From assembly GCA_964577695.1 (NCBI GenBank), contig CAZOAL010000003.1:163486-227485 (forward strand): 64,000 nt of DNA, in the 5' to 3' direction. Below the pieces are notes generated by a model. The model did not search any database. It saw only the letters and a list, made by a program, of their open reading frames with translations, and was not told where the DNA came from. A program made the translations under genes and the position numbers. Of the stretch, positions 806 through 54,639 are shown piece by piece (the stretch's first letter is position 1; each line of letters starts with the position of its first letter). Origin of the DNA: an uncultured bacterium (lineage in GTDB: Bacteria; Poribacteria; WGA-4E; PCPOR2b).

Positions 806-1000
806 GGAAGGAGAACGTGAAACGTGAAGCGTGAAACGTGAAAGGAAAGAATGGAAGGAAGGGAAGGAAAGGAAGGATGGAAGAAAGGAAGAATGGAAGG
901 ATGGAAGGTTGTTGTTGGAAGGATGGAAGGATGGAAGGATGGAAGGGAAGAAGTTTTTCACGTTTCACGTTTCACGTTTCACGCATCATTTTCTCTAATC
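806..1000. repeat. heptamer-repeat hairpin element: (CGTGAAA)n arm, GGAAGG/ATGGAAGG tract, (GTTTCAC)n arm
   Basis: read directly: cgtgaaacgtgaagcgtgaaacgtgaaagg 813-842; ggaaggatggaagg units 842-955; gtttcacgtttcacgtttcacg 958-985 (inverted to left arm). Confidence 0.85.
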
Positions 1001-6394: not shown

Positions 6395-7869
6395 CGCAAA
6401 CCAGGTGGTTTACGAGTGCGCTGATGGGATTTCTGGCGCTTGGAGTCTGGTGTGTTTCGGCTCAAGTTGCTTTGAATCCCGCTTGCGGGGGCGCAGAGGT
6501 TCCAGAAACCATACAATCGCAACTACAACGTGGCGAGGTTTATATTCTCCAGGGGAAATTTGATGAAGCGGAGGGCGTCTATCGGGCGCTCTTGCAGCAG
6601 GATGCAAAATCGGCTGAAGCGTACCGTGGGCTGGGCCTTGTTTACTGGACTCGTGGGATGGTCGGTGAGGCGCTCCGATATTATCAGGAAGCGCTGAGAT
6701 TAAATCCCGAGATGGTCCAAGCGCTGATGGATGTGGGGGTCATCCTATCTCACCTCGGGCAGCATCTGAAGGCGATCGAACATTGCGAACAGGCGATTCG
6801 CCTTGCACCCGATTCGAGTTGGGTCAGGCTGACGTTCGGCGATATCCTCTGGAATGCCGAACGATATGAGGAGGCAGCCCAACAATACCAAGAGGCTTTG
6901 AATCAGGATTCCCATCTCGTGGCGGCGTATGTTGGACTCGGGCGCGCGTATCTGGCTCAAGCGAAGTTGGAAGCGGCGCTCCAGGCATTCGAGGCAGCGT
7001 TAGCCTTGGATGCGAACGCGCAGGATGCCTACTACCACCGTGGCGTCGTCTATTCCAAACAGGGAAAATACGATTTGGCGATTGCAGATTTTCAAAAAGT
7101 ATTGGAACTCAAATCCGACCACGCGGATGCCTATTTTGAGATGGGGTATGCCTATCAACAGCAGCAGCAGTATGAACAGGCAATTCGCGCCTACCGAGGT
7201 GCGCTCCAAATCAATCCAGACGATGCGGTGGTGCATCACAACCTGGCACGATGCTATATCCGCCAGGGAAACCGAGAAGCTGCCGAACGGGAGCGAAAAA
7301 TCGCCCAGCAGCTCCAGGAATATGCGGATGCGATTGCTCATGCGAAAGCCTATATCACTCAATATCCCGATAAGGCAGAGGGGTACGCCTATTTGGCTTC
7401 CCTGTATCAACAGCGCGGTAAATGGGAGGACGCCATCCAGCAGTACCGTCTCGCATTGACGGTCGATACCCACTTCATGCCCGCCTACAGCAACCTTGCG
7501 GAACTTTATACCCAACGGCGGCAATTCGATCTGGCGGTTAAGGTTTATCAGGAGGCGCTCCGGCAGTCGCCCGACAATGTTCAAATACGTGTTGCGTTGA
7601 GCCTCCTTTATCAAAAGCAAAATCGGGCGAAGGAAGCAGTGGAACAACTGAACATCGCACAGGAATTGGTTGAAACGGCTGCGGCTGCCGGAAAAGCTTC
7701 AGCCGAACAGTTGGAGACACTGGCGTTTGTGTACTATGCAAAGGGGTGGTATGATAAAGCAGAAGCGGTTCTGCGGGAGGTGATGCAGTTCGCTCCGAAT
7801 AATCCAAAGTACCTGCGCCAACTGGATACGATTCGCACAGCACGCCGACGTCAGGAAGGGTTAAAATGA
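6391..7869 (+). CDS. tetratricopeptide (TPR) repeat protein with signal peptide
   Basis: about 12 TPR units ([12 protein letters not shown]..., [13 protein letters not shown]..., [13 protein letters not shown]...); 4-nt overlap with the upstream gene; TTG start or ATG at 6424. Confidence 0.75.
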
Positions 7870-8200
7870 GCAAATGTGCAAATGGAAGGAGAGGAAGAAA
7901 AGGAAGGATGGAAGGAAGGAAGGATGGAAGAAGGGAAGGATGGAGGGATGGAAGAATGGAAGATTGGAAGGATGGAAGATTGGAAGGATGGAAGGATGGA
8001 AGGATGGGAAGGATGGAAGATTGGAAGGATGGAGGGATGGAAGGATGGAAGATTGGAAGGATGGAAGAATGGAAGGATGGAAGGATGGGAAGGATGGAAG
8101 ATTGGAAGGATGGAGGGATGGAAGGATGGAAGGATGGAAAGGAAGAAGTTTTTCACGTTTCGCGTTTCACGTTTCACGTTTCACGTTTTACGCCATAAGC
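7866..8200. repeat. about 290-bp degenerate GGAAGGAT/GGATGGAA tandem tract followed by (GTTTCAC/GTTTCGC)x5
   Basis: read directly; the four overlapping track ORFs here encode WKDGRMEG / HPSILPSF low-complexity repeats and are repeat artefacts. Confidence 0.9.
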
Positions 8201-9455: not shown

Positions 9456-9493
9456 TTAGTGCATCGCGGCATAAGTTTTGACCCCCCCTCGGT

Positions 9494-9580
9494 CCCCCCG
9501 TGGACGGGGGGAAGGAAACGCCCCTCCCCGCCCTTCTCCCTCCCTGTCCACGGGGAGGGCCGGGGTGGGGGGAGGCCGGG
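9494..9580. repeat. GC-rich palindromic (REP-like) hairpins just after the stop codon
   Basis: ccccccgtggacgggggg 9494-9511; ccctccctgtccacggggaggg about 9540-9562. Confidence 0.6.
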
Positions 9581-9689
9581 TGGGGGTAAACATCTGTCGA
9601 GTTATTTCTGCCTTGAAGCACTGGTCAACCACAGTGATGATGAATGTTGTGAGGGGGTTGCACCCCCGAACTCAAACTGTCGGGGGTAC

Positions 9690-9905
9690 AACCCCCTTAG
9701 AACCATACATCAAAATCCGAAATCCCAGATCCTTCCGAAGGTTTCAAACCTACGACTTTTTCAGTTATGGGCAAAAGTGAGGCCCAGACTTCCGAAGTTT
9801 CCACAGATGAGTTGAGCGGAGACGATGCAAAACCATGAAAAACCGATTCATCAAAAATCTGGTCTCAAACTTCGGAAGTCTAAGTGAAAAACTCGTATCA
9901 AACCT
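9690..9905. repeat. MITE-like palindromic element, family A (TIR ...cgactttttcagttatgggcaaaagtga...; internal gacttccgaagttt / aaacttcggaagtct)
   Basis: near-identical copies at 21835-21995 and 53105-53300; a partial hairpin at 19060-19100. Confidence 0.8.
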
Positions 9906-10071
9906 TCGGAAGGTTTCGCACAAAGGTGGGGTCGTTATTTCCGCCGATGCGTACTACCTTTTTACCAAAATGCAGATTTTTATTTACATGGGGCGGAAAA
10001 ATTGGTAAGATTTAATACCTTGCTTCCGCCGTTGGTTGCGGAAGCCAACAAATTTGATGGAGGAATTTTTC

Positions 10072-12073: not shown

Positions 12074-12436
12074 ATGACAGACGAGATGATTACAACGCTT
12101 TCCTTCGATGAACTTCCCCCTGATGATGAATCGGCGTGGGAGCAGTTTGATCGCTTAACCGATGCAGAATGTGAAGAGAGACAAGATAGAGACAATCCGC
12201 CGTTGACAGCGGAACAGCGAAAACAATTCAGGCGGGCTTATTTCGTCAAAGGGGAAATGGTCTGGAAAGATGACAAAACGATTGGGGAATTGTTGAAAGA
12301 GAAGGGAGAGGCCCCGACAATCATTCCTGTGGATTCGGACATTGCCGAATGGTTCAAAGCACAAGGGCAAGACTTTAAAGCCCTCATGAATGCAGCACTC
12401 AGAGATTATGTCTCCGCTCACCAAAACGCCCGTTGA
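12074..12436 (+). CDS. BrnA-like (DUF4415) antitoxin-family protein, with no adjacent toxin gene
   Basis: C-terminal IPVDSDIAEWFKAQGQDFKALMNAALRDYVSAHQ resembles BrnA-family antitoxins. Confidence 0.5.
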   Translation: MTDEMITTLSFDELPPDDESAWEQFDRLTDAECEERQDRDNPPLTAEQRKQFRRAYFVKGEMVWKDDKTIGELLKEKGEAPTIIPVDSDIAEWFKAQGQDFKALMNAALRDYVSAHQNAR

Positions 12437-12452
12437 TTGAAAGGGAATCCTG

Positions 12453-15400
12453 ATGCAACAACTTTCCTTGAAACCCACGCACAAGCCTGTCAGGGCATAT
12501 TATGACGCCTTAGCTCGATTTCACGCCATCGGTGTTGCGCATGAAACCGCCGTGCGCTCTGCCTTTTTTAGCCTGCTCGAATCCTGCGGGCGTCAGTTTG
12601 ATTGGACGCTGGTCCCAGAGTGGCCGATGAAACGAGGCAAGAACCAACGGATTATTGTGGACGGTGCGCTCGTGGATGCGTATCACTTGACGCACGGCTT
12701 CTGGGAAGCGAAGGATAGTCAAGATGACCTGGAACGGGAAATCGACAAGAAGTTTTCTACTGGCTACCCCAGAGATAATATCCTGTTTCAGGCACCTGAA
12801 CGGGCAATCCTCTGGCAGAATGACCGACAGGTTCTGGATGCCGATCTCACCCAAGTCGATCAGTTAATCGAAACGCTCACAGCCCTCTTGGAGTATCGCC
12901 CCCCTGATTATGTCGAATGGGAGAAAGCGGTTGCGGAGTTCAAAGACCGCGTTCCTGACTTGGCAACAGGGCTTGTGAGACTCATCGAAAAGGAACGGCA
13001 AACCAACACGCGCTTTCTCTCAGCCTTCACTGTTTTCACCGAGAAGTGTCGTCAATCGATAAACCCTAACATCTCCTCAGCGGCGGTCGAGGAGATGTTG
13101 ATTCAGCACTTGCTCACCGAACGCATCTTCCGCACGGTCTTTCACAACCCGGATTTCAGGGATAAAAATGTCATCGCTTGCGAAATCGAAACGGTGATTC
13201 GAGCTTTGACTTCCCAATCCTTCAGCAGAGATCAATTCCTCAAGAACCTCGATCGGTTCTATGTCGCGATTGAACGAACCGCCGCCACGATTGACGACTT
13301 CTCTCACAAACAGCATTTCCTCAACACGGTCTACGAACAATTCTTTCAAGGCTACTCCGTCAAGGTCGCTGACACACACGGCATCGTCTACACCCCACAG
13401 CCGATTGTCACGTTCATGGTCAAGAGTGTGGAGGACATCTTGCAAAAAGAGTTTGGCAGGTCGCTTTCTGATAGGGACGTGCATATCATCGATCCGTTCG
13501 TGGGAACGGGTAACTTCATCGTGCACGTCATGCAGGAGATCAGGAAAACCGCGCTCCCTCACAAATATGCCCATGAACTCCACTGTAACGAGGTGATGCT
13601 CCTGCCCTACTACATCGCTTCGATGAACATCGAACACGAATACTTTGAAGCAACGGGACACTATCAGCCCTTTGAAGGCATCTGCTTGGTGGATACGTTT
13701 GATCTGGCAGAGGAACGGCAACTCCCGCTGTTTGTTGAGGAAAACACGGCGCGGGTGGAAAAGCAGAAGCGGACGCCGATGTTTGTGATTATCGGGAATC
13801 CGCCGTACAATACGACACAGGTGAATGAGAATGATAATAACAAGAATCGGAAGTATGAAACGATAGATAAGCGCGTGTCGGAAACATACGCAAAAGATTC
13901 AAAGGCTACTAATGTCAATAAGCTGAGTGATCCCTACGTCAAAGCGATTCGTTGGGCATCAGATCGGATCGGTGAGGAAGGTATCGTCGCATTCGTGACG
14001 AACAATAGTTTTATGGATCAAATTGCCTTTGATGGGATGCGTCAACACTTAGCAAAAGATTTTGATGTGATTTATGTCCTCGACTTGAGCGGCAATGTCA
14101 GGAAGAATCCGAAGCTATCAGGCACCACGCATAACGTGTTTGGCATTCAGGTAGGCGTCAGTATTAACCTTTTCATCAGAAAAAGTCAGGCACCCAAAAA
14201 CGCCGCACAGATCCATTACGCACGGGTGGATGAGTTTTGGCGAAAAGAGGAGAAGTATCGGTATCTGGACGAAAAGCAACACAGAGGCACTATTGATTGG
14301 CAATCTATCCAGCCAGATAAGAAAAAGGCGTGGCTGACGGAAGGTCTACACGATGAGTTTGAAACGCTCATATCCATGGGGAATAAGGCATCGAAATCTG
14401 CGAGGGGAGAGGCTGTCGATGCGATCTTCAAGGTTTACAGTCTCGGCGTTGTTACCAACCGCGATACTTGGGCGTACAACTTCAACCGAGATACCCTCAT
14501 CGGAAACATCAAACGAACCATCGCAACCTACAACGAGCAGGTCTTAAAGTGGATTCACCGATCGAATAAAGATGCGAACGTGGATGACTTTGTGCTGTAT
14601 GACGATAGCAGACTGAGCTGGAGCAGAGACTTAAAAGCGGATCTCAACAGAGGACGGCTGGCGGAATTTTCGGAGGAAAAGGTGAGGCAATCCCTCTACC
14701 GCCCGTTTACTCGCACCACTCTGTTCTTTGATCGAATCTTGAACCAGGATGTTTTTGTCTTTCCTTCCATTTACCCCATGCCTGAAACAGAAGCGGAGAA
14801 TCGGGTGATTTGCCTAAGCGCAGTTGGAAATAACAAGGCATTTCATTGTTTAGTGGTAAATATCATACCAGATTTACACTTGACTGGTGATTCTCAATCC
14901 TTCCCCTTCTACACCTACAACGAGGACGGCACGAACCGCCGCGAAAACATTACCGACTGGTCACTCGCTCAATTCCGCAATCACTATGCCCAATCCGCAA
15001 TCCGCAATCCGCAATCCGCAATCGAAAAATGGGATATATTCCACTACGTCTATGCTGTGCTGCATCACCCCGATTATCGTGAACGGTATCAAGCCAACCT
15101 GAAGCGAGAATTGCCCCGCATTCCCTTTGCGCCCGATTTCTGGGCGTTTGCCAGTGCAGGGGAACGCTTGGCAGAGATTCACGTCCACTATGAGGAGCAG
15201 CCCGAATATCCGCTGAAAATGGTTGAGACTCCCAATCAGCGGCTCGATTGGCGTGTCGAGAAGATGCGGCTTTCCAAAGACAAGACGCAACTTCGCTACA
15301 ACGATTTCTTGACGCTGGACGGGGTTCCATCGGAAGCGTTTGACTATCGGCTCGGCAATCGCTCGGCGTTGGATTGGGTGATAGACCAGTATCAGGTCAA

Positions 15401-15554
15401 GACCGACTCACGAAGCGGTATCGTCAATGACCCCAATCGACAGGATGACCCCGAATACATTGTCCGTTTGATTGGACAGGTGATCACCGTGAGTCTGGAA
15501 ACGGTGAAGATTGTGAAGGCTTTGCCAGAGCTGGGGATACCATCGGAAGGGTAA
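12453..15554 (+). CDS. single-polypeptide Type IIL/IIG restriction-modification enzyme (MmeI-like): N-terminal PD-ExK nuclease, gamma-class N6-adenine methyltransferase, C-terminal target-recognition domain
   Basis: PD-ExK signature in IVDGALVDAYHLTHGFWEAKD; methyltransferase motif IV VIIGNPPYN; 1033 aa. Confidence 0.75.
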   Translation: MQQLSLKPTHKPVRAYYDALARFHAIGVAHETAVRSAFFSLLESCGRQFDWTLVPEWPMKRGKNQRIIVDGALVDAYHLTHGFWEAKDSQDDLEREIDKKFSTGYPRDNILFQAPERAILWQNDRQVLDADLTQVDQLIETLTALLEYRPPDYVEWEKAVAEFKDRVPDLATGLVRLIEKERQTNTRFLSAFTVFTEKCRQSINPNISSAAVEEMLIQHLLTERIFRTVFHNPDFRDKNVIACEIETVIRALTSQSFSRDQFLKNLDRFYVAIERTAATIDDFSHKQHFLNTVYEQFFQGYSVKVADTHGIVYTPQPIVTFMVKSVEDILQKEFGRSLSDRDVHIIDPFVGTGNFIVHVMQEIRKTALPHKYAHELHCNEVMLLPYYIASMNIEHEYFEATGHYQPFEGICLVDTFDLAEERQLPLFVEENTARVEKQKRTPMFVIIGNPPYNTTQVNENDNNKNRKYETIDKRVSETYAKDSKATNVNKLSDPYVKAIRWASDRIGEEGIVAFVTNNSFMDQIAFDGMRQHLAKDFDVIYVLDLSGNVRKNPKLSGTTHNVFGIQVGVSINLFIRKSQAPKNAAQIHYARVDEFWRKEEKYRYLDEKQHRGTIDWQSIQPDKKKAWLTEGLHDEFETLISMGNKASKSARGEAVDAIFKVYSLGVVTNRDTWAYNFNRDTLIGNIKRTIATYNEQVLKWIHRSNKDANVDDFVLYDDSRLSWSRDLKADLNRGRLAEFSEEKVRQSLYRPFTRTTLFFDRILNQDVFVFPSIYPMPETEAENRVICLSAVGNNKAFHCLVVNIIPDLHLTGDSQSFPFYTYNEDGTNRRENITDWSLAQFRNHYAQSAIRNPQSAIEKWDIFHYVYAVLHHPDYRERYQANLKRELPRIPFAPDFWAFASAGERLAEIHVHYEEQPEYPLKMVETPNQRLDWRVEKMRLSKDKTQLRYNDFLTLDGVPSEAFDYRLGNRSALDWVIDQYQVKTDSRSGIVNDPNRQDDPEYIVRLIGQVITVSLETVKIVKALPELGIPSEG
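14988..15022 (+). repeat. (CAATCCG)x~4.7 heptamer tandem repeat inside the RM coding sequence
   Basis: cccaatccgcaatccgcaatccgcaatccgcaatcg, encoding QSAIRNPQSAIRNPQSAIE; the 7-bp unit is not a multiple of 3. Confidence 0.9.
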
Positions 15555-18863: not shown

Positions 18864-19138
18864 TGAGCGGAAAGGGGAATGTTTTAGAAACCTCTTTACA
18901 CGCTTTGGGGTTGGAAGATTGGAAGAATGGAAGGATGGGTGGCAGGGCTTCATCTTCCATTCGTGCAGGTTTCCTGCTCTCATATCAAGTGCAAACTCAT
19001 TTTTTCAGGAATTTGAAACATGCCACTATTAGTCAACCAAATTTAATCTGAGGGATAGACTTCCGAAGTTTCCGAAACTTCGGAAGTCTGCGAGTCCATC
19101 AATTTAAATTTGGTGAAGCACTCTAAGGAGAAAAAATA

Positions 19139-20392
19139 ATGAAGGTCAATCCACAACAATTTCTTGATGATGGCTATCTCATTTTACGAGAGGTTATTTC
19201 TCCACAACGGTTAGACGAACTGCGCGCCAGTTTTGAAGTCCTTGTTGAACGGCAGAAAGCAATTTGGGTACGTGAGCGCAAGCCCAACGACCCGCCGGGC
19301 GGCGCATGGGAAACTTCAGCCCAGCCACGGTTGGGGGCTTTCAATACTCTTATTGATGAGACAACTGCCAACACAGTTGAATGTTGGTTACACGAAAATA
19401 CGTTGGGTGTCAGTCGCCAACTGTTGAGCGTGCCGGATGCGGCGTCGGTCGCGGGGATGATGTTGATGTGCAGCCCCACGCGCGATCACGGCCCCGCCAA
19501 TTGGCACCGCGATGTCCATCCCATTGACATGGCACCACTCGGTGGCTTGCAGATGGACCTGCTGGAGAAAGGGCCCAAGTATGTACAGTGGAACATCCCA
19601 CTCTATGACGATGATGTGCTGTGGGTGGTGCCCGGCAGCCATCGCCGCCTCAATACCGACGTAGAAAACCGACAACTGCTTGAAAATCCGCGCACCCCCT
19701 TGCCGGGGAGCATCCCGGTTCACCTCAAAGCTGGCGATGGTGTGGTGTATATCAACTACCTCCTGCACTGGGGCAGCAACTACAGCACCAAACTGCGACG
19801 CACCCTTCACGGCGGTCACTCAATTTTCCCTTACTTCCCTGACCTGAGCTTCACGAGGTTCCTTTCGCCTTCGGCGCGGGAGACCTTTGCGTGCTGGGCT
19901 CAGAAAAGCGCAAAGATGCAAGACCTTACAGAGGCAGCGCTCCGCGCTGTTATCAACAAAGATGTCAACACTTACCATGCAGCGGTCGAATCGCTCCAGC
20001 CCGGCGCGGGCGAGAAGGGCAAACTGGCACTGGCAATCTATCTCTCCAAGGCGGCCTATCACATCCACATCTTGAAACGCCCCGACTTTGACAGCCCCGC
20101 AAGTCGAAGACTCTCGGAACGGAGCGGGATTCAAAGCAACTTGCCCGCGGATGTTCGCAGACGCGCGACCAACTCGCACTCAATCACGCTCAACTGGGGG
20201 CCAGCGTTCGCCGTTCGCTTCTCGCAGGCAGAGGCTGACATTTTATGGCAGCGTTTCAAGACGCTTGACGCGAAACTTCAGGCGGAGACGGAGCAGTTTG
20301 TTCCCGGCTTCCAGTCCGGGCCGATGCGATACTTCTTCGAGGAGATGCCAGACGATTTCGATGTCGAAGACTTTATCGCCAGTTGGGATTAA
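19139..20392 (+). CDS. phytanoyl-CoA dioxygenase (PhyH) family protein with C-terminal extension
   Basis: N-terminus MKVNPQQFLDDGYLILREVI...; HRDVHP ... H motif spacing; RBS aaggag. Confidence 0.7.
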   Translation: MKVNPQQFLDDGYLILREVISPQRLDELRASFEVLVERQKAIWVRERKPNDPPGGAWETSAQPRLGAFNTLIDETTANTVECWLHENTLGVSRQLLSVPDAASVAGMMLMCSPTRDHGPANWHRDVHPIDMAPLGGLQMDLLEKGPKYVQWNIPLYDDDVLWVVPGSHRRLNTDVENRQLLENPRTPLPGSIPVHLKAGDGVVYINYLLHWGSNYSTKLRRTLHGGHSIFPYFPDLSFTRFLSPSARETFACWAQKSAKMQDLTEAALRAVINKDVNTYHAAVESLQPGAGEKGKLALAIYLSKAAYHIHILKRPDFDSPASRRLSERSGIQSNLPADVRRRATNSHSITLNWGPAFAVRFSQAEADILWQRFKTLDAKLQAETEQFVPGFQSGPMRYFFEEMPDDFDVEDFIASWD

Positions 20393-20395
20393 GTG

Positions 20396-20500
20396 AGGGC
20401 TAGTCATCATTCCCAGGGGAGGCAGTCGTAGCCTAAGATTCTATCTTGGCCCCTTGCGCAAGGGGCCAAGATAGAATCTTGGGCTACAATTCAACCGCCG
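20396..20500. repeat. gene-end motif gtgagggctagtcatcattcccaggggaggcagtcgtagcc plus family-B core palindrome (gtagcctaagattctatcttggcc..ggccaagatagaatcttgggctac)
   Basis: same motif follows the stops at 42976 and, in diverged form, 11043. Confidence 0.8.
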
Positions 20501-20682
20501 GATAATTATGACCAAGCCTCGATTAAGTGTGGGGCTGGTCCATTTCTGGAAAAATGAGTTGACACGCAGCATCAGCCGGAAGGAAAGGAAGGAAGAAAGG
20601 GGGGAAACCCTTCCCTTCCTTCCTTTCCGTTCACTCTGCTCTTCTTACCCAATTGTCAACATCTTTCTGAAACACCTGTCCA

Positions 20683-21810
20683 TCACACCGCATAAGCCAC
20701 TGAGCCATCTTCGCGCAACAAGGTCTGACCGGTGTTCATGGGTTGGTACGGAGTCTGAGCGATCAGGTTGTCGTCGAGCTCCACACCCAACCCCGGCGCT
20801 TCGGGAATCGGAATAAAGCCCCCCTCGCGTCGGTATGAGGTTTTATAAACCGCGTTGTGAGGGGCTTCGTCGCTTTTGGTGTACTCTTGGGTGATGAAGT
20901 TCGGGATGCTGGCGTCGAGGTGCAGCGAGGCAGCCGTAATCAACGGACTCAGGAAATTGTGAGTCACGACGGCGCTGTGGTAGGATTCGGCGATGGCGGC
21001 GATTTTTTTGCAGTGGGTCAGGCCGCCAGCCAAAGCCACATCCGGGCGCACGTACTGAGGACCACCCGCAGCCAGCAACTCGCGGAACTCCCAGATCGTC
21101 GTCAGGCGTTCGCCGATGCCCAGAGGAACGGTGATGCGCCTGGCAATCTCCGCCTGGGACACAATGCTGTCGATCTGGATGGGGTCCTCCAGGAAGTAGA
21201 GATTAAAAGGTGCCAAAGCCTCAGCCAGGACGATGGCGTTCATAGGAGTGAGTTTGCGGTGGACTTCGACGATTAGGTCCAGGTCGGGGCCGCCGCCCTC
21301 GCGTGCCGCCGCGACCAGGTCACGGGCCGTCTTGACAAGGCGATCCAGGGCCATATTCTGGTATCCACCGACCACCGGGTCGAACTTGAGGGCAGTGAAA
21401 CCCTCCTCCACCGTCGCTTTGGCAGTCTGGAACATTGCCTCCGGGGTGGAGCCGCCAGCCATAAGGTGCAGGCGGATTTTGTCGCGGCAATTGCCTCCTA
21501 ACAGCTCCCACACTGGGACGCCGAAGTGCTTGCCTTTGATGTCCCACAGTGCGATGTCAACGGCACTGATGGCACCACAGAGGGCCGACCCCCGAAAAGG
21601 CCCCATGCGATAGAGGTACTGCCAGTGGTGTTCAATGCGCAAGGGATTCTGGCCGATCAGGTACTTCTCGAAAGTCCCAACGATTCTTTCCACCGCTTCG
21701 GGGTAGCCCCAGCAGGCGGTCTGGCCAATGCCGCTGATACCATTATCGGTATGGATGCGGACCACATAGCCATTGCCAATAAAGAGGGATTCGATTCTGT
21801 CAATTTTCAT
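20683..21810 (-). CDS. mandelate racemase/muconate lactonizing enzyme (enolase superfamily) sugar-acid dehydratase, galactonate/mannonate dehydratase-like
   Basis: N-terminus MKIDRIESLFIG...ISAVDIALWDIKGK...; 375 aa; RBS aaaggag. Confidence 0.75.
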   Translation of the reverse strand: MKIDRIESLFIGNGYVVRIHTDNGISGIGQTACWGYPEAVERIVGTFEKYLIGQNPLRIEHHWQYLYRMGPFRGSALCGAISAVDIALWDIKGKHFGVPVWELLGGNCRDKIRLHLMAGGSTPEAMFQTAKATVEEGFTALKFDPVVGGYQNMALDRLVKTARDLVAAAREGGGPDLDLIVEVHRKLTPMNAIVLAEALAPFNLYFLEDPIQIDSIVSQAEIARRITVPLGIGERLTTIWEFRELLAAGGPQYVRPDVALAGGLTHCKKIAAIAESYHSAVVTHNFLSPLITAASLHLDASIPNFITQEYTKSDEAPHNAVYKTSYRREGGFIPIPEAPGLGVELDDNLIAQTPYQPMNTGQTLLREDGSVAYAV

Positions 21811-21834
21811 GGTGAACTCCTTTCAAAACTGTGA

Positions 21835-21995
21835 ATGACACGACTGTTTCAGTTATGGGCAAAAGTGATGCGCAGACTTCCGAAGTTTCAACATCTGAGT
21901 TGAGCTGAGACGATGTGAAACCATAAAAAACAGATTCAGCAAAAATCGGGTCTCAAACTTCGGAAGTCTCAGTGAAAAACTCGTATGAATAAGGA
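21835..21995. repeat. MITE-like element family A, copy 2
   Basis: aligns base-for-base with 9740-9900. Confidence 0.8.
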
Positions 21996-22104: not shown

Positions 22105-22160
22105 TGAATCCGTCCAGTTTGCGTGTTGCGTATCGCGTATTTCGTACTTCTACGCAACAC
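22105..22160. repeat. inverted repeat tttgcgtgttgcgtatcgcgtatttcgta / tacgcaacacgcaatacgagag
   Basis: read directly. Confidence 0.7.
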
Positions 22161-22327
22161 GCAATACGAGAGTTCGTGTTGGTCAGTTATACGAGTTTTT
22201 CGCTTGGTTCCCTCGCCCCTTGTGGGAGAGGGAGAAAGACGAACCTTCGGTTGGACTCGATTGGGCGATAACCGACAAACTCGTATCAGTTATTGGGAAA
22301 TTCTTTACGAATTAACGGAGGAAGATA

Positions 22328-27842: not shown

Positions 27843-27844
27843 AT

Positions 27845-27880
27845 CAGGCGTGAAACGTGAAACGTGAAACGTGAAATGTG
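27845..27880. repeat. (GTGAAAC)x3-4 heptamer repeat
   Basis: gtgaaacgtgaaacgtgaaacgtgaaatgtgagg. Confidence 0.85.
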
Positions 27881-27912
27881 AGGATTTGAACCCATGAACT
27901 GATGAACACCCT

Positions 27913-28770: not shown

Positions 28771-28796
28771 ATGACTTTTTCACCGTTCGTTCAAAC

Positions 28797-28866
28797 CCCG
28801 GTTGTCCTTTGGACACCGGGTGTTTGAAATTGACACACCCGGTGTCTAAAGACAACCGGGGTGTAA
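28797..28866. promoter_or_regulatory. operator-like 25-bp inverted repeat (cggttgtcctttggacaccgggtgt N11 acacccggtgtctaaagacaaccg) upstream of the J-protein gene
   Basis: read directly; 27-95 nt upstream of the minus-strand start at 28770. Confidence 0.5.
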
Positions 28867-28954
28867 TATTTTTAATTTTAGACGTGCTGATATGGAAAAA
28901 GTATAGCCATTTCGACAATTTTTTACTTTTTTGCTGATGCCGTGCTTCCCTGTT

Positions 28955-30805: not shown

Positions 30806-30900
30806 CATGAAACGTATTGCGTATTGCGTATTGCGTACTGCGTATTGCGTGAGTCGTGATACCTGAACCTAACACCTAACACCTAACACCTGACACCTAA
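30806..30900. repeat. (GCGTATT)x5 followed by (CACCTAA)x5 heptamer tracts
   Basis: cgtattgcgtattgcgtattgcgtactgcgtattgcg ... cctaacacctaacacctaacacctgacacctaac. Confidence 0.9.
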
Positions 30901-30916
30901 CGAACGAGGAATAAAA

Positions 30917-32242: not shown

Positions 32243-33169
32243 ATGGCTAGGAAAAAAATCAGCGTCATCGGCGCTGGAAACGTTGGCGCGACTGCCGCAT
32301 TTCTTATCGCTCAAAAGCAAGTTGGCGATGTCGTGATGGTGGATATTATCGATGGGATTCCACAGGGGAAGAGTTTGGACATGGCACAAGCATCCCCTAT
32401 TGAGCTCTTTGACGCAAGCGTTACAGGCTCGCTGGATTATGAAGCGACTGCTGGCTCTGACCTCGTCATCATTACGTCTGGCTCTCCCCGCAAGCCGGGC
32501 ATGACCCGCGAAGACCTCTTGCAGACCAATGCGAAAATCGTTGGCATCGTCACGGAAAGCGTGGTGAAGCACTCGCCGAATTGTATCATCGTGATGTTGA
32601 CAAACCCGCTGGACATCATGACCTATCATGCGTGGAAGGTGTCGGGTTTCCCACCCAATCGCGTCCTTGGACAAGCTGGCGTCCTGGATTCAGCGCGGTT
32701 CCGTTATTTTATCGCTCTGGAACTTGGCGTCTCTGTCGAAGACGTTCAGGCACTTGTGATGGGGGGACACGGGGATACGATGGTGCCCCTGCCGCGTTAT
32801 ACAACGGTTGCCGGGGTTCCAATCACACAACTCATGTCCCCTGAGCGAATCACAGCGCTTGCCGAGCGGACACGCGACGGCGGCGCTGAAATCGTCAACC
32901 TGCTGAAAACCAGCGGTTACTACGCCGCCGGTGCCGCGCTCGCTCAAATGGCAGAAGCTATCATCCGAGACAAGAAGCGGATTATCCCTTGCTCGGCTTA
33001 CCTCACCGGACAGTACGGCATCAATGACCTGTACAGCGGCGTCCCGATTAAATTGGGGGCGGGCGGCGTTGAGCAGGTTATCGAAATCGAACTGACAGAC
33101 GATGAACTTCAGGCGTTGCAAACGTCGGCTCAGACGTATCGGGAAGGGATTCAACTGCTGGGGTATTGA
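32243..33169 (+). CDS. mdh: malate dehydrogenase (LDH-like MDH family)
   Basis: KISVIGAGNVGATAAFL Rossmann N-terminus; 308 aa; family conservation throughout. Confidence 0.85.
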   Translation: MARKKISVIGAGNVGATAAFLIAQKQVGDVVMVDIIDGIPQGKSLDMAQASPIELFDASVTGSLDYEATAGSDLVIITSGSPRKPGMTREDLLQTNAKIVGIVTESVVKHSPNCIIVMLTNPLDIMTYHAWKVSGFPPNRVLGQAGVLDSARFRYFIALELGVSVEDVQALVMGGHGDTMVPLPRYTTVAGVPITQLMSPERITALAERTRDGGAEIVNLLKTSGYYAAGAALAQMAEAIIRDKKRIIPCSAYLTGQYGINDLYSGVPIKLGAGGVEQVIEIELTDDELQALQTSAQTYREGIQLLGY

Positions 33170-38102: not shown

Positions 38103-38429
<327 letters not shown>

Positions 38430-40306: not shown

Positions 40307-40699
40307 ATGGAAATACAAGTGATGTCCGTTATGCCGGAGAGGATGGTAAAACTGCTGACCGGCTTGACGGTTAGCGATTGGATTGCTGTTGTGGGGTTAA
40401 TCTTCACCATGGGGGGTGCATTGTATGCCTGGTGGCGGTGGTGGTGGTGCAGTGCCAAAGGTGAACTGAAGCGAATCTACCGGCGCGCTGCCAGGAAAGC
40501 AACGCAGAAAAATAGCAAGCTTGTGCCAATCGTATGTGCCATAGTTGATGAAGCCGATTTTTGGAAAGGGGCATGGTCCCCGCGTGTTTCTGAAACGGAT
40601 GAACGCGAGAGTTTTCGTGAACAATTGAAACGACGGTGCCCTGCTTTGGATGTGACTAAATTAGGGCGTGTTGACGAACTCGGGCAAATGCGCTCGTAG
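40307..40699 (+). CDS. hypothetical membrane protein; C-terminal codons are supplied by repeat element B
   Basis: one TM segment and WRWWWC; the ORF runs into the MITE-like element at 40655. Confidence 0.3.
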   Translation: MEIQVMSVMPERMVKLLTGLTVSDWIAVVGLIFTMGGALYAWWRWWWCSAKGELKRIYRRAARKATQKNSKLVPIVCAIVDEADFWKGAWSPRVSETDERESFREQLKRRCPALDVTKLGRVDELGQMRS

Positions 40700-40795
40700 C
40701 CCAAGTTTCTAACTTGGTGCCTCGTCCCCAACCAAGATAGAATCTTGGGCTACAGTTGGATTGCGAAACAGTTCGTCAACACGCCCTCAACCAGC
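40655..40795. repeat. MITE-like palindromic element family B, full copy (TIR gggcgtgttgacgaact; core gtagcccaag[at]ttctaacttgg / ccaagatagaatcttgggctac)
   Basis: full copies at 46075-46215 and 60655-60795; core-only copies at 20430-20500 and 43010-43075. Confidence 0.85.
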
Positions 40796-42976
40796 ATCAT
40801 TGACTCCGACATAAAGGGCATCCTCTACCTGCGCTGTCTGCGCGGCGACCTCAGTCTGGGGCGGATGTTCGTCGAGGCGGGGCGCATCGTCGGAGGTAGC
40901 GAGGCGTTCCAGCAGACCTACGCCAACCGCGATCTGACCCTTGAGCGGAAACTGGAGTTCTTCTTCCGTGAACTGAGCCGAGCGGGGGACGTCTGGGTGG
41001 TGATGGACAACTTTGAAGACCTGCTTGCCCCCGACGACACCATCGCTGACCCGGAGCTGCGCCAGTTCATCGAAACCGCTGTGGACACCTCGCACACCGT
41101 GCGCCTCATTGCCACCACCCGCGCCATCCCGCGCTTTCGCGGCAGTCAGCAGGTTAAGCCGATAGACCTGCGCGAGGGCTTGCCGGAAGACCAGGCAATT
41201 GCGTATCTGCGAACGGATGGAGCGGACTACGGCCTGGCGGATGCCGACGAGGGGTTGCTGCGCGCCTTCGTCAACCGCGTCCACCGCATCCCGAAGGCGC
41301 TGGAGTCGGTCATCGGCTACCTCTCGGAGAAATATCCTGTGGTGCAGTTGTCCGACCTGATGGCGAACGACGCCCTGTTTGCGGACTTTGACCGCCACGA
41401 CGCGGAGAACGGCTTGAAGCGGCTCATCGCCGAACAGTTTGCCGACCAGACGCCGGACGCGCAGTTGGTGCTGTGCGCCCTGTCTATCTTCCCCAAGCCC
41501 GCCCCGCTCACCGCGCTGCGCTATCTGCTCCCCGCCCTCGACTGGGCGAGCGTCCTGCCCCGTCTCGAACGCAACAGACTGGTTGGCAGACAGGTTGACC
41601 GCTATGACCTGCACCCGATTGTGCGGGAGTATGCTTATGCGCAGATACCTGAATACATGCAGGATTCAAGGTTCAGGTCAGAGCGGAGCGGAGACTCCCC
41701 GATGGGATCGGGACAGGCCGATCTATCGGAGATTCAGGATTCAGGTGAGACAGTGTCTGCACCTTCCACCAACGGCGTGCCATTCACTCGCTCTGCGTTG
41801 CACACGCGGGCGGCGGATTTCTTCCGTGAACTCCGCAAGCCGCAACAGGAGTGGAAGACCATCGCTGACCTTGAGCCGCAGTTGGACGAGTTCCACCATC
41901 GCGTCCGAGCGGGGCAGTATGACGCCGCGGCGCGAGTGCTCAATGACATTGACTTCGACTACCTGCAACTCTGGGGGCACGCCCGAACGGTCATTGAGTT
42001 GCGCCAGCAGTTGGAGGGGAAGTTGACGGACACCGATCTGGCACGCGTCAACGTGGGCCATTTGGGGTTTGTTTATCAGGACACGGGGCGGGTGCGCGAA
42101 GCCATCCCCTGCCTGGAACGTGCCTTACAAAGCGCTCGGGATGAAGACAATCAGGGTGGGATCGGCGTATGGCTGGGCAATCTGGGGAATGCCTACGCCG
42201 ATCTGGGGGAGACGCGCCAGGCTATCGAGTATTACGAGCAGGTGCTGGAGATTGCCAGAGCGATTGGCGACCGACGGGGGGAAGGGAATTGCTTGGGCAA
42301 TCTGGGGATTGCCTACGCCGATTTAGGTGAGAGGCACCAGGCGATTAGGTATTACAAGCAGGCGCTGGCGATTAAACGCGAGATTGGTGACCGAGTAGGG
42401 GAAGGCAAACAGTTGGACAACCTCGGAGCAGCGTACTTGAGGTCAGGCGAGTTCGATTCGGCAATCGGACACTACACGCAAGCAGCGCGTGTGTCGGAAG
42501 AGGTGGGTGACAAAGAAAACCAGTCTTATGCCCTGGGTGGCCTGGGCGCTGTCCACCATCACCGTGTCAACCTCGCCGACGCCCGCCGCTGTTACGCAGA
42601 CGCCCTCGCCCTTGATATGCCGAGGACCGACTACAGTTGCGCCGTCAAGTTAGGTGTCCTCTGCCTGGAAGAGGGCAAGGCAGAGGATGCGCAGGACTAC
42701 TTCGCCCGCGGCATCGCCCTCTGCCGCGCCCTGCTGGAAAAGACGCCGCGTCTTTACGACGCGCTCTACGAACTTGCCCTCGCGCAACTGGGGGGCGGGC
42801 AGCCTGACGGTGCCCTCGTCACCTATCGGCAGGCGTTGGAGGTCTGCGCGGCGAAGGGTGTGGTGCAGAATGCGCTTCAGGACCTGCGGCTGCTGGGACG
42901 GGCGGTGTTGCCGGTGGCAGGGTTGGCGGAGGCGGTGGCGTTGTTGGAGAAGGCTACGGAAGGGGGGGTTAAGTGA
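40745..42976 (+). pseudogene. STAND-type (NB-ARC-like) NTPase-TPR protein lacking its N-terminal P-loop; probably 5'-truncated
   Basis: Walker-B-like VWVVMDNFEDLL and IATTRA present but no GxxxxGK[ST]; ORF starts inside repeat B; C-terminal TPR units (NLGNAYADLGETRQAIEYYEQVLEIAR... x5). Confidence 0.55.
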
Positions 42977-42977
42977 G

Positions 42978-43078
42978 GGGTGGTCATCATTCCAAGGGGA
43001 GGCAATCGTAGCCCAAGATTCTATCTTGGCCTTCCGGCACAAGAGCCAAGTTAGAAACTTGGGCTACAGAAGGGTTTT
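42978..43078. repeat. gene-end motif (gtgaggggtggtcatcattccaaggggaggcaatcgtagcc) plus family-B core palindrome
   Basis: compare 20396-20500. Confidence 0.8.
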
Positions 43079-46075: not shown

Positions 46076-46215
46076 AAGTTGAAAGAACTAGGGCGTGTTG
46101 ACGAACTATTTTTCGATCCCGTCGTAGCCCAAGATTCTATCTTGGTTTAGTGCTTGGGGCCAAGTTAGAAACTTAGGCTACAAGCGCATTTCCCCGAGTT
46201 CGTCAACAGAGCCTA
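46075..46215. repeat. MITE-like element family B, full copy; exact reverse complement of the 60655-60795 copy
   Basis: direct comparison. Confidence 0.85.
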
Positions 46216-46238
46216 ATTATAACGAAGGAGAAAGTTAA

Positions 46239-50892: not shown

Positions 50893-50992
50893 TGTGTGAA
50901 ACGTGAAACGTGAAGAGGAACATGCAAACACCTAACACCTAACACCTAATACCTAACACCTTCCACGCATCACGTTTCACGACTTAAAAGGA
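50893..50992. repeat. heptamer hairpin element: (GTGAAAC)x3 ... (CACCTAA)x4 ... CGTTTCACG
   Basis: read directly. Confidence 0.85.
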
Positions 50993-52065: not shown

Positions 52066-53103
52066 ATGAACGATACAATCACCGCCATCAAGGGAATCAA
52101 AGTTGGACATGCGACGAATCCAGTGGCACGCACCGGGTGTACGGTTATCCTCTGCGAGTCCGGGGCTGTCGCCGGAGTCGATGTCCGCGGCTCTGCGCCC
52201 GGCACACGAGAGACAGATGCCATCCGACCAGGAGGACTGGTTCAGTGTGCACATGCAGTTTTGCTCACGGGTGGAAGCGCGTTCGGATTGGACGCCGCCG
52301 GAGGGGTCATGCAGTACCTCGAAGAGCGAGGTATCGGATTTCCTGCTGGGCCAGTCCGTGTGCCGATTGTTCCGGCGGCGGTCATTTTCGATCTGGGAGT
52401 CGGCGATGCAAGGGTGCGCCCAGACTCGGAAATGGGCTATCGTGCCTGTGTAAGTGCGACAAACCAGCCGGTCAAGATGGGGCAGATTGGGGCTGGAGCT
52501 GGCGCAACCCTCGGAAAGGCGCTGGGGTGCATTCCATCAAACGGCGGCGTTGGATCGGCGTGTCGAAGGTTGAAGTCAGGGCTGATCGTCGGGGCGATTG
52601 TCGTCGTCAACGCGCTTGGGAACGTCGTCGATCCAATGACCGGAGCAATCGTGGCGGGTGCCCGGGATAAAGGGACGGGTGAGTTTGTGGATATTGTGGC
52701 GCGTTCATCCGATGCCACGCTGCCTTTCCCTCCCCCTCACCCCTTACCTCTCTCCCCAGCCCGCTTCGCTTCGAGAGGGGCAGGGAGTGAGGGGAGGGGA
52801 GGGGTCAGGAACGAGAGTGGAACGTTGGGAACGAACACAACCATCGGTATCGTCGCGACCAATGCCGAGCTCTCCCCTACAGCGGTGACGAAGGTGGCAC
52901 AGATGGCGCATGACGGCCTGGCGAGAGCGATTCGCCCAGCTCACACGATGTTCGATGGAGACACGATTTTCGCGCTCTCTCTGGGAACGGAAACGGCTTC
53001 GAGTCCCGATTCTATCGGGATCGCGGAAGTGAATACCATCGGAATCGTTGCGGCGGAGGTCATGGCGGAAGCAATCTTGCAGGCTGTGAAACGTGACGCG
53101 TAA
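52066..53103 (+). CDS. P1/S58 (DmpA-type) family aminopeptidase, carrying an in-frame insertion of a GC-rich palindromic element
   Basis: N-terminal GIKVGHATNPVARTGCTVIL pattern; low-complexity insert LPFPPPHPLPLSPARFASRGAGSEGRGG encoded by the 52733-52800 repeat. Confidence 0.7.
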   Translation: MNDTITAIKGIKVGHATNPVARTGCTVILCESGAVAGVDVRGSAPGTRETDAIRPGGLVQCAHAVLLTGGSAFGLDAAGGVMQYLEERGIGFPAGPVRVPIVPAAVIFDLGVGDARVRPDSEMGYRACVSATNQPVKMGQIGAGAGATLGKALGCIPSNGGVGSACRRLKSGLIVGAIVVVNALGNVVDPMTGAIVAGARDKGTGEFVDIVARSSDATLPFPPPHPLPLSPARFASRGAGSEGRGGVRNESGTLGTNTTIGIVATNAELSPTAVTKVAQMAHDGLARAIRPAHTMFDGDTIFALSLGTETASSPDSIGIAEVNTIGIVAAEVMAEAILQAVKRDA

Positions 53104-53104
53104 T

Positions 53105-53300
53105 ACCAATTCGCGTTTCAAAAAGTTTCCTACTTCGTTATACGAGTTTTTCGCTTAGACTTCCGAAGTTTGACACCCAACCTGCGCGGGACGGTTCCTT
53201 CAAGGTTTCGCATTGTACCGGCTCACCTCGTCTGTTAAAACTTCGGAAGTCTGGGTCTCACTTTTGCTGATAACCGAAAAAGTCGTATCGTTACACTCAG
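53105..53300. repeat. MITE-like element family A, copy 3
   Basis: gttatacgagtttttcgcttagacttccgaagttt ... aaacttcggaagtct ... rc matches the 9700-9900 copy. Confidence 0.8.
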
Positions 53301-54573: not shown

Positions 54574-54639
54574 CAGTTTGCCTCCTCTTTTTAGCGATTT
54601 TTTTCGCAGATATACCATTTTTACCTGGTTCTAAAGCAT

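What the first reader, a model, noticed from the sequence alone, without database searches (positions are those of the whole stretch)
9690..9905. MITE-like palindromic element family A in three or more copies
Near-identical elements of about 160-200 bp occur at 9690-9905, 21835-21995 and 53105-53300, all in gene 3' flanks, plus a mini-hairpin at 19060-19100. Each has terminal inverted repeats (gttatacgagtttttcgctt / atacgagtttttcac) and an internal palindrome (gacttccgaagttt / aaacttcggaagtct). They carry no ORF, so they look like non-autonomous mobile elements or structured ncRNAs.
Basis: seen in the sequence. Interest (0 to 1): 0.55.

Follow-up and report, generated by a model that had tools for sequence, protein, structure and literature searches.

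The report
New MITE family in Poribacteria
The repeats are real: they are copies of a small, non-coding "jumping" DNA element (a MITE, 147 bp) in the chromosome of an uncultivated Poribacteria bacterium. It is an ordinary kind of element but an undescribed family, and it has an unusually conserved internal palindrome that also occurs on its own in the host and in some phages.

Summary
There are three 147-bp copies: 9751-9897 (+), 21839-21985 (+) and 53141-53287 (-), 72-87% identical. There is also a 33-nt mini-hairpin at 19057-19089, and a fourth element (22190-22285) with the same termini but a different interior.

Each full copy has imperfect terminal inverted repeats (TACGACTTTTTCAG / GTGAAAAACTCGTA). 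Inside lies a 15-bp inverted repeat (AGACTTCCGAAGTTT) whose arms start 81-82 nt apart.

A metagenome scan gave 18 more insertions at unrelated sites. Of 18 elements with both flanks, 13 are bracketed by perfect 6-7-bp direct repeats that differ from copy to copy (target T-N4/5-A; permuted flanks average 0.7). Removing copy 1 and one repeat restores a perfect 13-bp-stem palindrome.

There is no Rfam match, no conserved fold in the centre, no open reading frame and no fixed position or orientation relative to genes. This makes it a non-autonomous transposon, not a riboswitch or sRNA.

The host is Candidatus Poribacteria (PheS 80% identical to MAGs). The family is absent from 185,579 reference genomes and from 17 other Poribacteria loci. 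No transposase partner was found.

One oddity remains. The internal arm is better conserved (96%) than the terminal repeats (89%) or the centre (65%), and near-identical 15-mers recur in high-GC phage contigs.

It is a new member of a known kind, of modest interest.

The parts
9751..9897 (+). Family A copy 1 (147 bp). Left terminal repeat is TACGACTTTTTCAG and right is GTGAAAAACTCGTA. The internal 15-bp arms lie at 9786-9800 and 9867-9881.
   Evidence: nhmmer E = 1.4e-44
9744..9750 (.). Left copy of the 7-bp target-site duplication TCAAACC of copy 1. The right copy is at 9898-9904.
   Evidence: 7/7 match
9898..9904 (.). Right copy of the target-site duplication TCAAACC of copy 1.
9731..9913 (.). 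Older palindrome split by copy 1. Its arms are CCTTCCGAAGGTT (9731-9743) and AACCTTCGGAAGG (9901-9913). Removing the element plus one duplication gives a perfect 13-bp stem with a 3-nt loop.
   Evidence: reconstructed site -14.7 kcal/mol, z = -7.0
21839..21985 (+). Family A copy 2 (147 bp). The left end is slightly decayed (CACGACTGTTTCAG). The flanking repeats are TGAATGA (21832-21838) and TGAATAA (21986-21992), a 6/7 match. It lies 29 nt upstream of the start codon of the minus-strand MR_MLE-family gene 20683-21810.
53141..53287 (-). Family A copy 3 (147 bp, a different subfamily). It is flanked by TCGTTA at 53135-53140 and 53288-53293 on the + strand. It lies between the convergent genes 52066-53103 (+) and 53521-54618 (-). 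The same insertion is present in metagenome contig L011.
22190..22285 (+). 96-bp element with the same termini (TACGAGTTTTTCGCTT ... GATAACCGACAAACTCGTA) but an unrelated interior. It is flanked by a perfect 7-bp duplication TCAGTTA (22183-22189 and 22286-22292) and lies 42 nt upstream of the gene at 22328.
19057..19089 (.). Stand-alone 33-nt mini-hairpin AGACTTCCGAAGTTT-CCG-AAACTTCGGAAGTCT. It has the same arms as the internal repeat of family A but no terminal repeats. It lies 50 nt upstream of the gene at 19139.

Best explanation
Family A is a miniature inverted-repeat transposable element (MITE) in a Candidatus Poribacteria chromosome. It is 147 bp long and non-coding.

Layout:
- Imperfect terminal inverted repeats of 14-19 bp: (A)TACGACTTTTTCAGTTAT on the left and GTGAAAAACTCGTA(T) on the right.
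- A 15-bp internal inverted repeat, AGACTTCCGAAGTTT / AAACTTCGGAAGTCT, with arms starting 81-82 nt apart.
- A freely diverging centre of about 66 nt.

Shown here:
- Copies sit at many unrelated, mostly intergenic sites, in both orientations.
- Copies are bracketed by direct repeats of 6 or 7 bp that differ from copy to copy and fit a T-N4/5-A target.
- An unrelated interior carried between the same termini (22190-22285) also has a perfect 7-bp duplication. This suggests that the termini, rather than the interior, determine mobility.

Inferred, not shown:
- The element is moved in trans by a DDE-type transposase, encoded elsewhere in the genome, that binds the termini and makes a 6-7-bp staggered cut in the target.
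- The internal palindrome is kept either because transposition needs it (a second binding site, or synapsis of the ends through a fold-back) or because it is a functional hairpin or protein-binding module that the element carries.
For: Repeat family is real.
- The 15-mer occurs 8 times against 0.13 expected.
- The HMM finds the three window copies at E about 1e-43.
- 19 further contigs in metagenomes carry it; 18 are at different sites.

Target-site duplications.
- 13 of 18 elements have perfect 6- or 7-bp direct repeats abutting TACGA...TCGTA. Permuted flanks give a mean of 0.73 and a maximum of 5 in 10,000 trials.
- The repeats differ between copies: TCAATCA, TTAATCA, TTAATGA, TTGATTA, TGATTTA, TGCCTCA, TCAAACC, TCAGTTA and others.
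- Where the last base of the repeat is not A (copy 1 TCAAACC, L002 TCCGGT) it is still duplicated. That base therefore belongs to the target, not to the element.

Insertion is reversible on paper. Deleting copy 1 plus one TCAAACC restores a perfect 13-bp-stem palindrome.

Terminal and internal stems. 98% of cells pair, and the fit collapses to 45% when the register is slid by 1.

Conservation profile is that of a transposon: left terminal repeat 89%, left internal arm 96%, centre 65%.

Recent activity. L017 and L019 are 99% identical but lie at different sites.

Repeat behaviour in assembly. Short-read assemblies of the same organism break inside copies 1 and 2.

No coding capacity. The flanking genes are ordinary metabolic genes and differ from site to site.
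Against: - No autonomous partner was found. About 50 window ORFs and 10 ORFs next to metagenome copies show no transposase, RAYT or TnpB domain. No pair of matching termini lies more than 200 bp apart in any sequence held.
- No true empty site from a sister strain was recovered.
- TSD length is not uniform (6 or 7 bp). Two of 18 copies have no recognisable duplication (L001, whose left end is truncated, and L017); three more (copy 2, L006, L010) have imperfect ones.
- The metagenome copies were selected with an exact 24-nt pattern in the right arm and right terminus. Conservation and pairing on that side are therefore fixed by ascertainment.
- The internal arm being more conserved than the termini is not what a minimal terminal-repeat-only model predicts.
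Confidence: 0.85

Rival explanations
1. A conserved structured RNA (riboswitch, leader or sRNA family). The repeats would be paralogous copies of a cis-regulatory or small RNA gene kept for their fold, not mobile DNA.
For: - Each copy folds into a long nested hairpin that is much more stable than shuffled sequence: -73 and -76 kcal/mol, z about -6.
- One terminal pair covaries A-T to G-C, with G-T intermediates.
- Several copies lie within 30-50 nt of start codons.
- A sigma-70-like promoter match at 22050-22022 would place copy 2 in a 5' leader.
Against: - No Rfam family matches at gathering or at E <= 1.
- Both strands fold equally well, as any inverted repeat does.
- RNAalifold finds no conserved structure in the 66-nt centre, and the covariation term is -0.2.
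- 18 of 29 pairs are invariant, so they say nothing about RNA. The single covarying pair is confined to one subfamily.
- Copies occur in both orientations and in 5', 3', tandem, divergent and convergent contexts next to unrelated genes.
- Copy-specific target duplications have no place in this model.
Confidence: 0.03
2. A REP/BIME-like or IS200/IS605-derived palindromic element (PATE). It would be moved as a single-stranded DNA hairpin by a tyrosine HUH transposase (RAYT/TnpA), with the hairpins rather than the termini being recognised.
For: - The element is dominated by hairpins.
- The 33-nt mini-hairpin with the same arms exists alone at 19057-19089 and at L013:1171-1203.
- The genome is full of other small palindromes, for example 28790-28870 and 22120-22165.
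- The internal arm is the best conserved part of the element.
Against: - From established knowledge of these families, HUH Y1 transposases insert without target duplication. Here 13 of 18 copies have 6-7-bp duplications.
- A different interior between the same termini also carries a perfect duplication (22190-22285). This suggests that the termini are the mobile determinant.
- No Y1 transposase or RAYT domain appears in the window ORFs scanned.
- This reading remains possible for the stand-alone mini-hairpins only.
Confidence: 0.05
3. A composite element. A MITE whose cargo is an independently functional palindromic module (AGACTTC-S-GAAGTYT), either a binding site for a dimeric DNA-binding protein or a 3'-end/processing hairpin. 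The element would matter mainly because it spreads that site. This reading is compatible with the best explanation and adds a function to it.
For: - The left arm is 96% conserved against 89% for the terminal repeat and 65% for the centre.
- Arm spacing is fixed at 81-82 nt in all copies.
- Each 15-mer is itself a 7-1-7 palindrome.
- The same 33-nt hairpin occurs alone in the host lineage.
- It occurs many times in real phage contigs, with the half-site seen 8-27 times per locus against 1-2 expected. There it lies 1-33 nt after stop codons, or is clustered upstream of genes.
Against: - There is no expression or binding data.
- No regulator has been identified.
- Four copies (L004, L008, L012, L018) have the left arm core replaced by an unrelated hairpin, so pairing of the two arms is dispensable for persistence.
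- Arm conservation can equally reflect a requirement for transposition, or ascertainment through the search pattern.
- The phages have 59-63% GC against 50-52% here, so a direct host-phage link is doubtful.
Confidence: 0.15

Closest known systems
Bacterial MITEs in general (for example RUP of Streptococcus pneumoniae, Nezha of cyanobacteria, Chunjie of Geobacter). The comparison is from my own knowledge of the literature.
   Same: - Size of 100-300 bp and non-coding.
- Terminal inverted repeats and copy-specific target-site duplications.
- Many copies in intergenic DNA.
- Subfamilies with conserved ends and a variable centre.
- Presumed mobilisation in trans by an IS transposase.
   Different: - No sequence similarity to anything in the plasmid or phage collections, or in Rfam.
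- A 6-7-bp duplication rather than the TA of IS630-driven MITEs.
- The parent IS is unknown.
- An internal 15-bp inverted repeat is more conserved than the termini.
Correia elements (CREE/NEMIS) of Neisseria. From my own knowledge.
   Same: - About 100-155-bp intergenic elements with inverted-repeat ends.
- Often next to gene starts or ends.
- Fold into long hairpins when transcribed.
- No known transposase in the genome.
   Different: - Correia elements duplicate TA. These duplicate 6-7 bp.
- The termini are unrelated in sequence.
- There is no evidence here for promoter, IHF or RNase III functions.
REP/BIME elements with RAYT transposases, and IS1397/ISKpn1, which insert into REP loops. From my own knowledge.
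   Same: - The stand-alone 33-nt hairpins resemble REPs in size and intergenic position.
- Copy 1 is inserted in the loop of such a palindrome, as IS1397 does in E. coli.
   Different: - Family A has terminal repeats and target duplications, which REPs lack.
- Only 1 of 18 insertions is in a palindrome, so hairpin loops are not its specific target.
- No RAYT was seen.
Rickettsia palindromic elements (RPE). From my own knowledge.
   Same: These are small palindromic repeats that can sit in frame inside genes. The 33-nt hairpin in L013 appears to add 11 residues to a lipoprotein signal peptide.
   Different: This is a single case, and the start codon is not verified. The family A copies themselves lie outside the long ORFs, although some abut or overlap predicted ORF ends by a few bases.

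Membership tests
Bacterial MITE (non-autonomous class II transposable element) | Small size (under about 500 bp) and no coding capacity | tested here: met
   Length is 147-151 bp in 15 copies and 156-179 bp in three copies with a nested hairpin. No frame stays open through the element in all copies.
Bacterial MITE (non-autonomous class II transposable element) | Terminal inverted repeats | tested here: met
   Left TACGACTTTTTCAG against the reverse complement of the right end, TACGAGTTTTTCAC (12/14). The terminal helix has 98% of cells paired across 15 copies, falling to 45% when the register is slid by 1.
Bacterial MITE (non-autonomous class II transposable element) | Target-site duplications that differ between copies | tested here: met
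   13 of 18 have perfect 6- or 7-bp direct repeats. Permuted flanks give a mean of 0.73 and a maximum of 5. The reconstructed empty site of copy 1 is a perfect palindrome.
Bacterial MITE (non-autonomous class II transposable element) | Multiple copies at unrelated genomic sites | tested here: met
   3 copies plus 1 related element in the window and 18 further sites in metagenome contigs, with different flanking genes.
Bacterial MITE (non-autonomous class II transposable element) | A cognate autonomous IS with the same termini that encodes the transposase | tested here: inconclusive
   None was found in the 64-kb window, in 22 contigs of the lineage, or in 17 other Poribacteria loci.
Correia (CREE/NEMIS) elements | TA target duplication | tested here: not met
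   The duplications are 6-7 bp of varied sequence.
Correia (CREE/NEMIS) elements | Characteristic 26-bp termini, an IHF site, and occurrence in Neisseria | not tested
   No reference sequence was available in the tools. The host here is Poribacteria and the termini differ from the Correia consensus as I recall it.
REP/BIME elements mobilised by RAYT, or IS200/IS605-derived PATEs | Insertion without target duplication, and hairpins rather than terminal inverted repeats at the ends | tested here: not met
   Duplications are present in 13 of 18 copies and terminal inverted repeats are present.
REP/BIME elements mobilised by RAYT, or IS200/IS605-derived PATEs | An associated Y1 (HUH) transposase gene | tested here: inconclusive
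   None was seen among about 50 window ORFs. The whole genome was not available.
Curated structured RNA family (riboswitch, leader or sRNA; Rfam) | Match to a covariance model | tested here: not met
   There were 0 matches at gathering score over the whole window. Only two chance-level hits appeared outside the element at E <= 1.
Curated structured RNA family (riboswitch, leader or sRNA; Rfam) | A conserved fold supported by compensatory changes | tested here: not met
   There is no consensus structure in the 66-nt centre and the covariation term is -0.2. Only 1 of 29 pairs has changes on both sides, and 18 never vary.

The most novel reading that the evidence does not exclude
The 15-bp palindrome AGACTTC-S-GAAGT(C/T)T may be a portable functional site rather than just part of a transposon. 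It could be an operator-like binding site for a dimeric protein, or a 3'-end/processing hairpin. On this reading it is shared between this Poribacteria lineage and unrelated high-GC phages, and family A is the vehicle that spreads pairs of such sites, 81-82 nt apart, next to host genes.

This would explain three things:
- The arm is more conserved than the element's own termini.
- The arm spacing is fixed while the centre drifts.
- The same 33-mer occurs alone in the host and 7-9 times in each of the two longest related phage contigs.
Probability: 0.12. Interest if true: 0.55.

Novelty: new member of a known kind. Interest (0 to 1): 0.3.

Why it matters
- It gives an exact definition (ends, target duplication, target preference, subfamilies) of a previously undescribed MITE family in Poribacteria, an uncultivated phylum. 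Full-text search found no paper that mentions MITEs in this phylum.
- Such repeats break short-read assemblies of this organism. They can be masked or used as strain markers.
- Copies that sit 29-42 nt upstream of start codons may alter expression of neighbouring genes.
- The link between the element's internal palindrome and intergenic hairpins in phages is a small open question that could lead to a regulator or processing signal. On present evidence it is only a curiosity.

Tried and rejected
1. Scan of 185,579 reference genomes for the right arm plus terminus found 0 hits, so the family is not in any species representative.
2. nhmmer and a fuzzy terminal-repeat search over 17 Poribacteria genome loci (356 kb) found no family member. 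The hairpin core CTTCSGAAG is at chance level there.
3. Search for the transposase.
   - Pfam scans of about 50 window ORFs and 10 ORFs beside metagenome copies gave only housekeeping, metabolic, restriction-modification and toxin-antitoxin genes.
   - No matching termini lie more than 200 bp apart.
4. Empty-site search by exact-protein look-ups of flanking genes gave either no record or contigs from the same organism that end inside the element.
5. blastn of the element against the plasmid and phage collections found no match.
6. Literature search for Poribacteria plus MITE or palindromic repeats, for the terminal and arm sequences, and for the sample accessions found nothing relevant.
7. A viral-contig scan with the left terminus gave one chance hit inside a giant-virus gene.
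8. I tested the idea that L010 and the window element at 22190 occupy the same site upstream of orthologous 308-aa genes. The proteins are unrelated.
9. I considered reading the terminal TA...TA as an IS630-type TA duplication. I rejected it because a further 6-7 bp are duplicated directly outside it.
10. I considered a model in which A and T are the element's end bases and the duplication is 5 bp. It is disfavoured because in copy 1 and L002 the last duplicated base is not A, yet it is still repeated.

Full report
**1. Observation.**

- The 15-mer AGACTTCCGAAGTTT occurs eight times without mismatch, as four inverted pairs: 9786/9867, 19057/19075, 21874/21955 and 53157/53238. A dinucleotide-preserving shuffle expects 0.13.
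- The repeat finder links 9730-9901 with 21818-21989 (85%), and 21834-21993 with 53133-53292 in inverted orientation.
- A three-way alignment shows that similarity starts and stops sharply. The exact limits are 9751-9897 (+), 21839-21985 (+) and 53141-53287 (-), each 147 bp.
- A fourth element at 22190-22285 has the same termini but an unrelated interior.

**2. Anatomy.**

From the outside in, each copy has these parts.
- (a) Imperfect terminal inverted repeats: TACGACTTTTTCAG(TTAT) on the left and GTGAAAAACTCGTA on the right (12/14). A C/G asymmetry at position 6 is present in 14 of the 15 aligned copies.
- (b) A 17-nt spacer, on the left side only.
- (c) A 15-bp internal inverted repeat whose arms start 81-82 nt apart in every copy.
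- (d) A centre of about 66 nt.

Across 15 copies, the left terminal repeat is 89% conserved, the left internal arm 96%, the spacer 73% and the centre 65%. The right side was fixed by the search pattern and cannot be judged. Both strands fold into a long nested hairpin (-73 and -76 kcal/mol, z about -6), as any such inverted repeat must.

**3. Related copies elsewhere.**

- The pattern CTTCGGAAGTCT-N3-8-AAAAACTCGTAT has no match in 185,579 reference genomes.
- It matches 19 metagenome contigs. One of them (L011) is the same insertion as copy 3. The other 18 lie at different sites next to unrelated genes: an ATP synthase subunit, radical SAM, xylose-isomerase-like, SCO1 and lectin-domain proteins, among others.
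- The copies fall into about four subfamilies. Two copies at different sites (L017, L019) are 99% identical.
- Short-read assemblies of the same organism (Logan SRR6155503 and SRR6155504) end inside copies 1 and 2, as expected for a dispersed repeat.

**4. Mobility.**

- If the element is taken as TACGA...TCGTA, 13 of 18 elements are flanked by perfect direct repeats of 7 bp (8 cases) or 6 bp (5 cases). Three more have a 5/6, 5/7 or 6/7 match.
- Pairing left flanks with the right flanks of other copies gives a mean of 0.73 perfect cases and a maximum of 5 in 10,000 permutations.
- The repeats differ from copy to copy: TCAATCA, TTAATCA, TTAATGA, TTGATTA, TGATTTA, TGCCTCA, TCAAACC, TCAGTTA, and also TCCGGT, TTCTAA, TCAAAA, TCATCA and TAACGA.
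- They begin with T in 18 of 18 copies. The base before the left end is A in 15 of 18. The target is therefore roughly T-N4/5-A.
- Copy 1 gives independent proof. Removing it together with one TCAAACC joins CCTTCCGAAGGTT and AACCTTCGGAAGG into a perfect 13-bp stem with a 3-nt loop (-14.7 kcal/mol, z = -7). So the element landed in the tip of an older palindrome.
- The 96-bp element at 22190-22285 shares only the termini, yet it has a perfect 7-bp duplication. This suggests that the termini are what the transposition machinery recognises.

**5. Not an RNA family.**

- Rfam gives no match at gathering score over the whole window. Only two chance-level hits outside the element appear at E <= 1.
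- RNAalifold on 15 copies predicts only the two inverted-repeat stems plus a 2-bp helix and nothing in the centre, with a covariation term of -0.2.
- Counting pairs shows that 18 of 29 never vary, and one (A-T to G-C with G-T intermediates) changes on both sides within one subfamily. Invariance is uninformative. A change at both termini is also what recognition by a single transposase would demand.
- Copies occur in both orientations and in every kind of intergenic context.
- No reading frame is open through all copies.

**6. Host and partner.**

- The window encodes ordinary chromosomal genes, including PheS, IF3, L20, isocitrate and malate dehydrogenases, and many GFO/IDH/MocA and PhyH enzymes.
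- PheS is 80-81% identical to Candidatus Poribacteria MAGs. The next-best non-Poribacteria hits are below 60%.
- The family is absent from the PheS neighbourhoods of 17 other Poribacteria genomes. It therefore appears restricted to this lineage.
- No transposase, RAYT or TnpB was found in the window or beside the metagenome copies. The autonomous partner, and hence the IS family, remain unknown.
- Mobilisation by a DDE transposase making a 6-7-bp staggered cut is an inference from the terminal repeats and the duplications.

**7. The internal palindrome.**

- Each arm is itself a 7-1-7 palindrome (ACTTC-S-GAAGT at its core).
- The two arms without the centre exist alone as a 33-nt hairpin at 19057-19089 and in contig L013.
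- In four metagenome copies the core of the left arm (TTCCGAAG) is replaced by an unrelated hairpin (CCCGATC...GATCGGGG) between the same AGAC and TTTC borders.
- A scan of viral contigs for the mini-hairpin unexpectedly found it in five contigs. There are 9 and 7 copies in two related contigs of 30 and 20 kb.
- PHROGs scans of the 30-kb contig show a real phage: large terminase, portal, major head, Mu Gam-like and HNH proteins.
- GC content across these viral loci is 59-63%, against 52% here.
- In the phages the hairpins lie in short gaps 1-33 nt after stop codons, or cluster upstream of a large gene. The 7-mer half-site is 8-27 times per locus against 1-2 expected.
- One contig (L104) has arm - about 70 nt - arm modules with the same layout as the core of family A, but the centre is not convincingly similar.
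- I cannot tell whether this reflects a shared protein-binding or processing signal, a tiny mobile hairpin, or something else. I record it as the most novel reading not excluded.

**8. Comparison and verdict.**

By every testable criterion (size, no coding capacity, terminal inverted repeats, copy-specific target duplications, dispersed copies) this is a bacterial MITE.
- It is not a Correia-type element, because its duplication is not TA.
- It is not a REP/RAYT or IS200/IS605-type element, because it makes duplications and has terminal repeats.
- It has no sequence relative in the plasmid, phage or Rfam collections, and no paper in the library describes MITEs in Poribacteria.

It is therefore a new member of a known kind. 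Interest is modest at 0.3. The conserved, phage-shared internal palindrome is the only unusual aspect.

Noticed in passing
window 40660-40787 (+), 46087-46217 (-), 60667-60797 (+); diverged relatives at 20350-20526 and 42930-43031: A second MITE-like family ('B', about 130 bp) with the same architecture. Its terminal inverted repeats are (T)TAGGGCGTGTTGACGAACT ... AGTTCGTCAACACGCCCTA(G) and its internal palindrome is GTAGCCYAAGWTTCTAWCTTGG / CCAAGWTAGAAWCTTGGGCTAC. Two copies are 98% identical. The ends look compatible with a TA duplication.
   Followed up: partly
L105, L108, L110 (IMGVR_UViG_3300006641_000114); L106, L109 (3300025872_000400); L111 (3300006917_000353); L107; L104: The 33-nt hairpin AGACTTCCGAAGTCT-NNN-AGACTTCGGAAGTCT occurs up to 9 times per 30 kb in high-GC (59-63%) viral contigs, one of which carries terminase, portal, head and Mu Gam-like genes. 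It lies 1-33 nt after stop codons or in clusters upstream of genes. The half-site AGACTTC is over-represented 10- to 20-fold. Its function is unknown.
   Followed up: partly
L013 1171-1203, within ORF 1144-1557: The identical 33-nt hairpin appears to lie in frame in the n-region of a lipoprotein signal peptide (MTMKLTYNG-RLPKSQRLRKS-GKILAMLLLGAALVIGAGC), adding 11 mostly basic residues. This is reminiscent of Rickettsia palindromic elements. The start codon is not verified.
   Followed up: partly
L004, L008 (942-1097), L012 (100-276), L018 (1345-1523): These family A variants have the 8-nt core of the left internal arm (TTCCGAAG) replaced by an unrelated hairpin (CCCGATC..GATCGGGG, 18 or 38 nt) between the same AGAC/TTTC borders. 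The two arms therefore no longer pair. The swap mechanism is unknown.
   Followed up: partly
window 842-957 and 7854-8160; 811-843, 956-995, 8151-8194, 27843-27885, 50895-50931; 30867-30912 and 50916-50975; 62617-62686; 53440-53470: There are dense short tandem arrays in intergenic DNA. They include an 8-mer GGAAGGAT array of about 300 bp flanked by heptamer CGTGAAA arrays, and further heptamer arrays (ACCTAAC, GTCAATT, TGGTGAA). The same CGTGAAA arrays flank elements in metagenome contigs L006, L013 and L018.
   Followed up: no
window 32886-33169 and 38146-38429: A 284-bp direct repeat, 97% identical and 5.3 kb apart. The first copy is the 3' end of the malate/lactate dehydrogenase gene 32243-33169, so the second looks like a partial gene duplicate.
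   Followed up: no
window 28790-28870; 22120-22165; 9638-9712; 9500-9600: Further unrelated palindromic or GC-rich repeat elements lie in intergenic regions, for example CAAACCCCGGTTGTCC...GGACAACCGGGGTG. The intergenic region that holds copy 1 (9456-10071) is made almost entirely of such repeats.
   Followed up: no
window 22050-22022 (- strand): A sigma-70-like promoter match (TTGACC-17-GATAAT with an upstream TG) lies upstream of copy 2. If it is used, copy 2 would be transcribed as part of the 5' leader of the MR_MLE-family gene 20683-21810. The number of such matches is no higher than in shuffled sequence.
   Followed up: no
window 12074-15554; 56055-56712: Defence and addiction genes are present: a Type ISP restriction-modification enzyme (12453-15554), preceded by a BrnA-antitoxin-like ORF that was annotated in L102, and a MazF/PemK toxin (56055-56423) with a small upstream ORF.
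   Followed up: no
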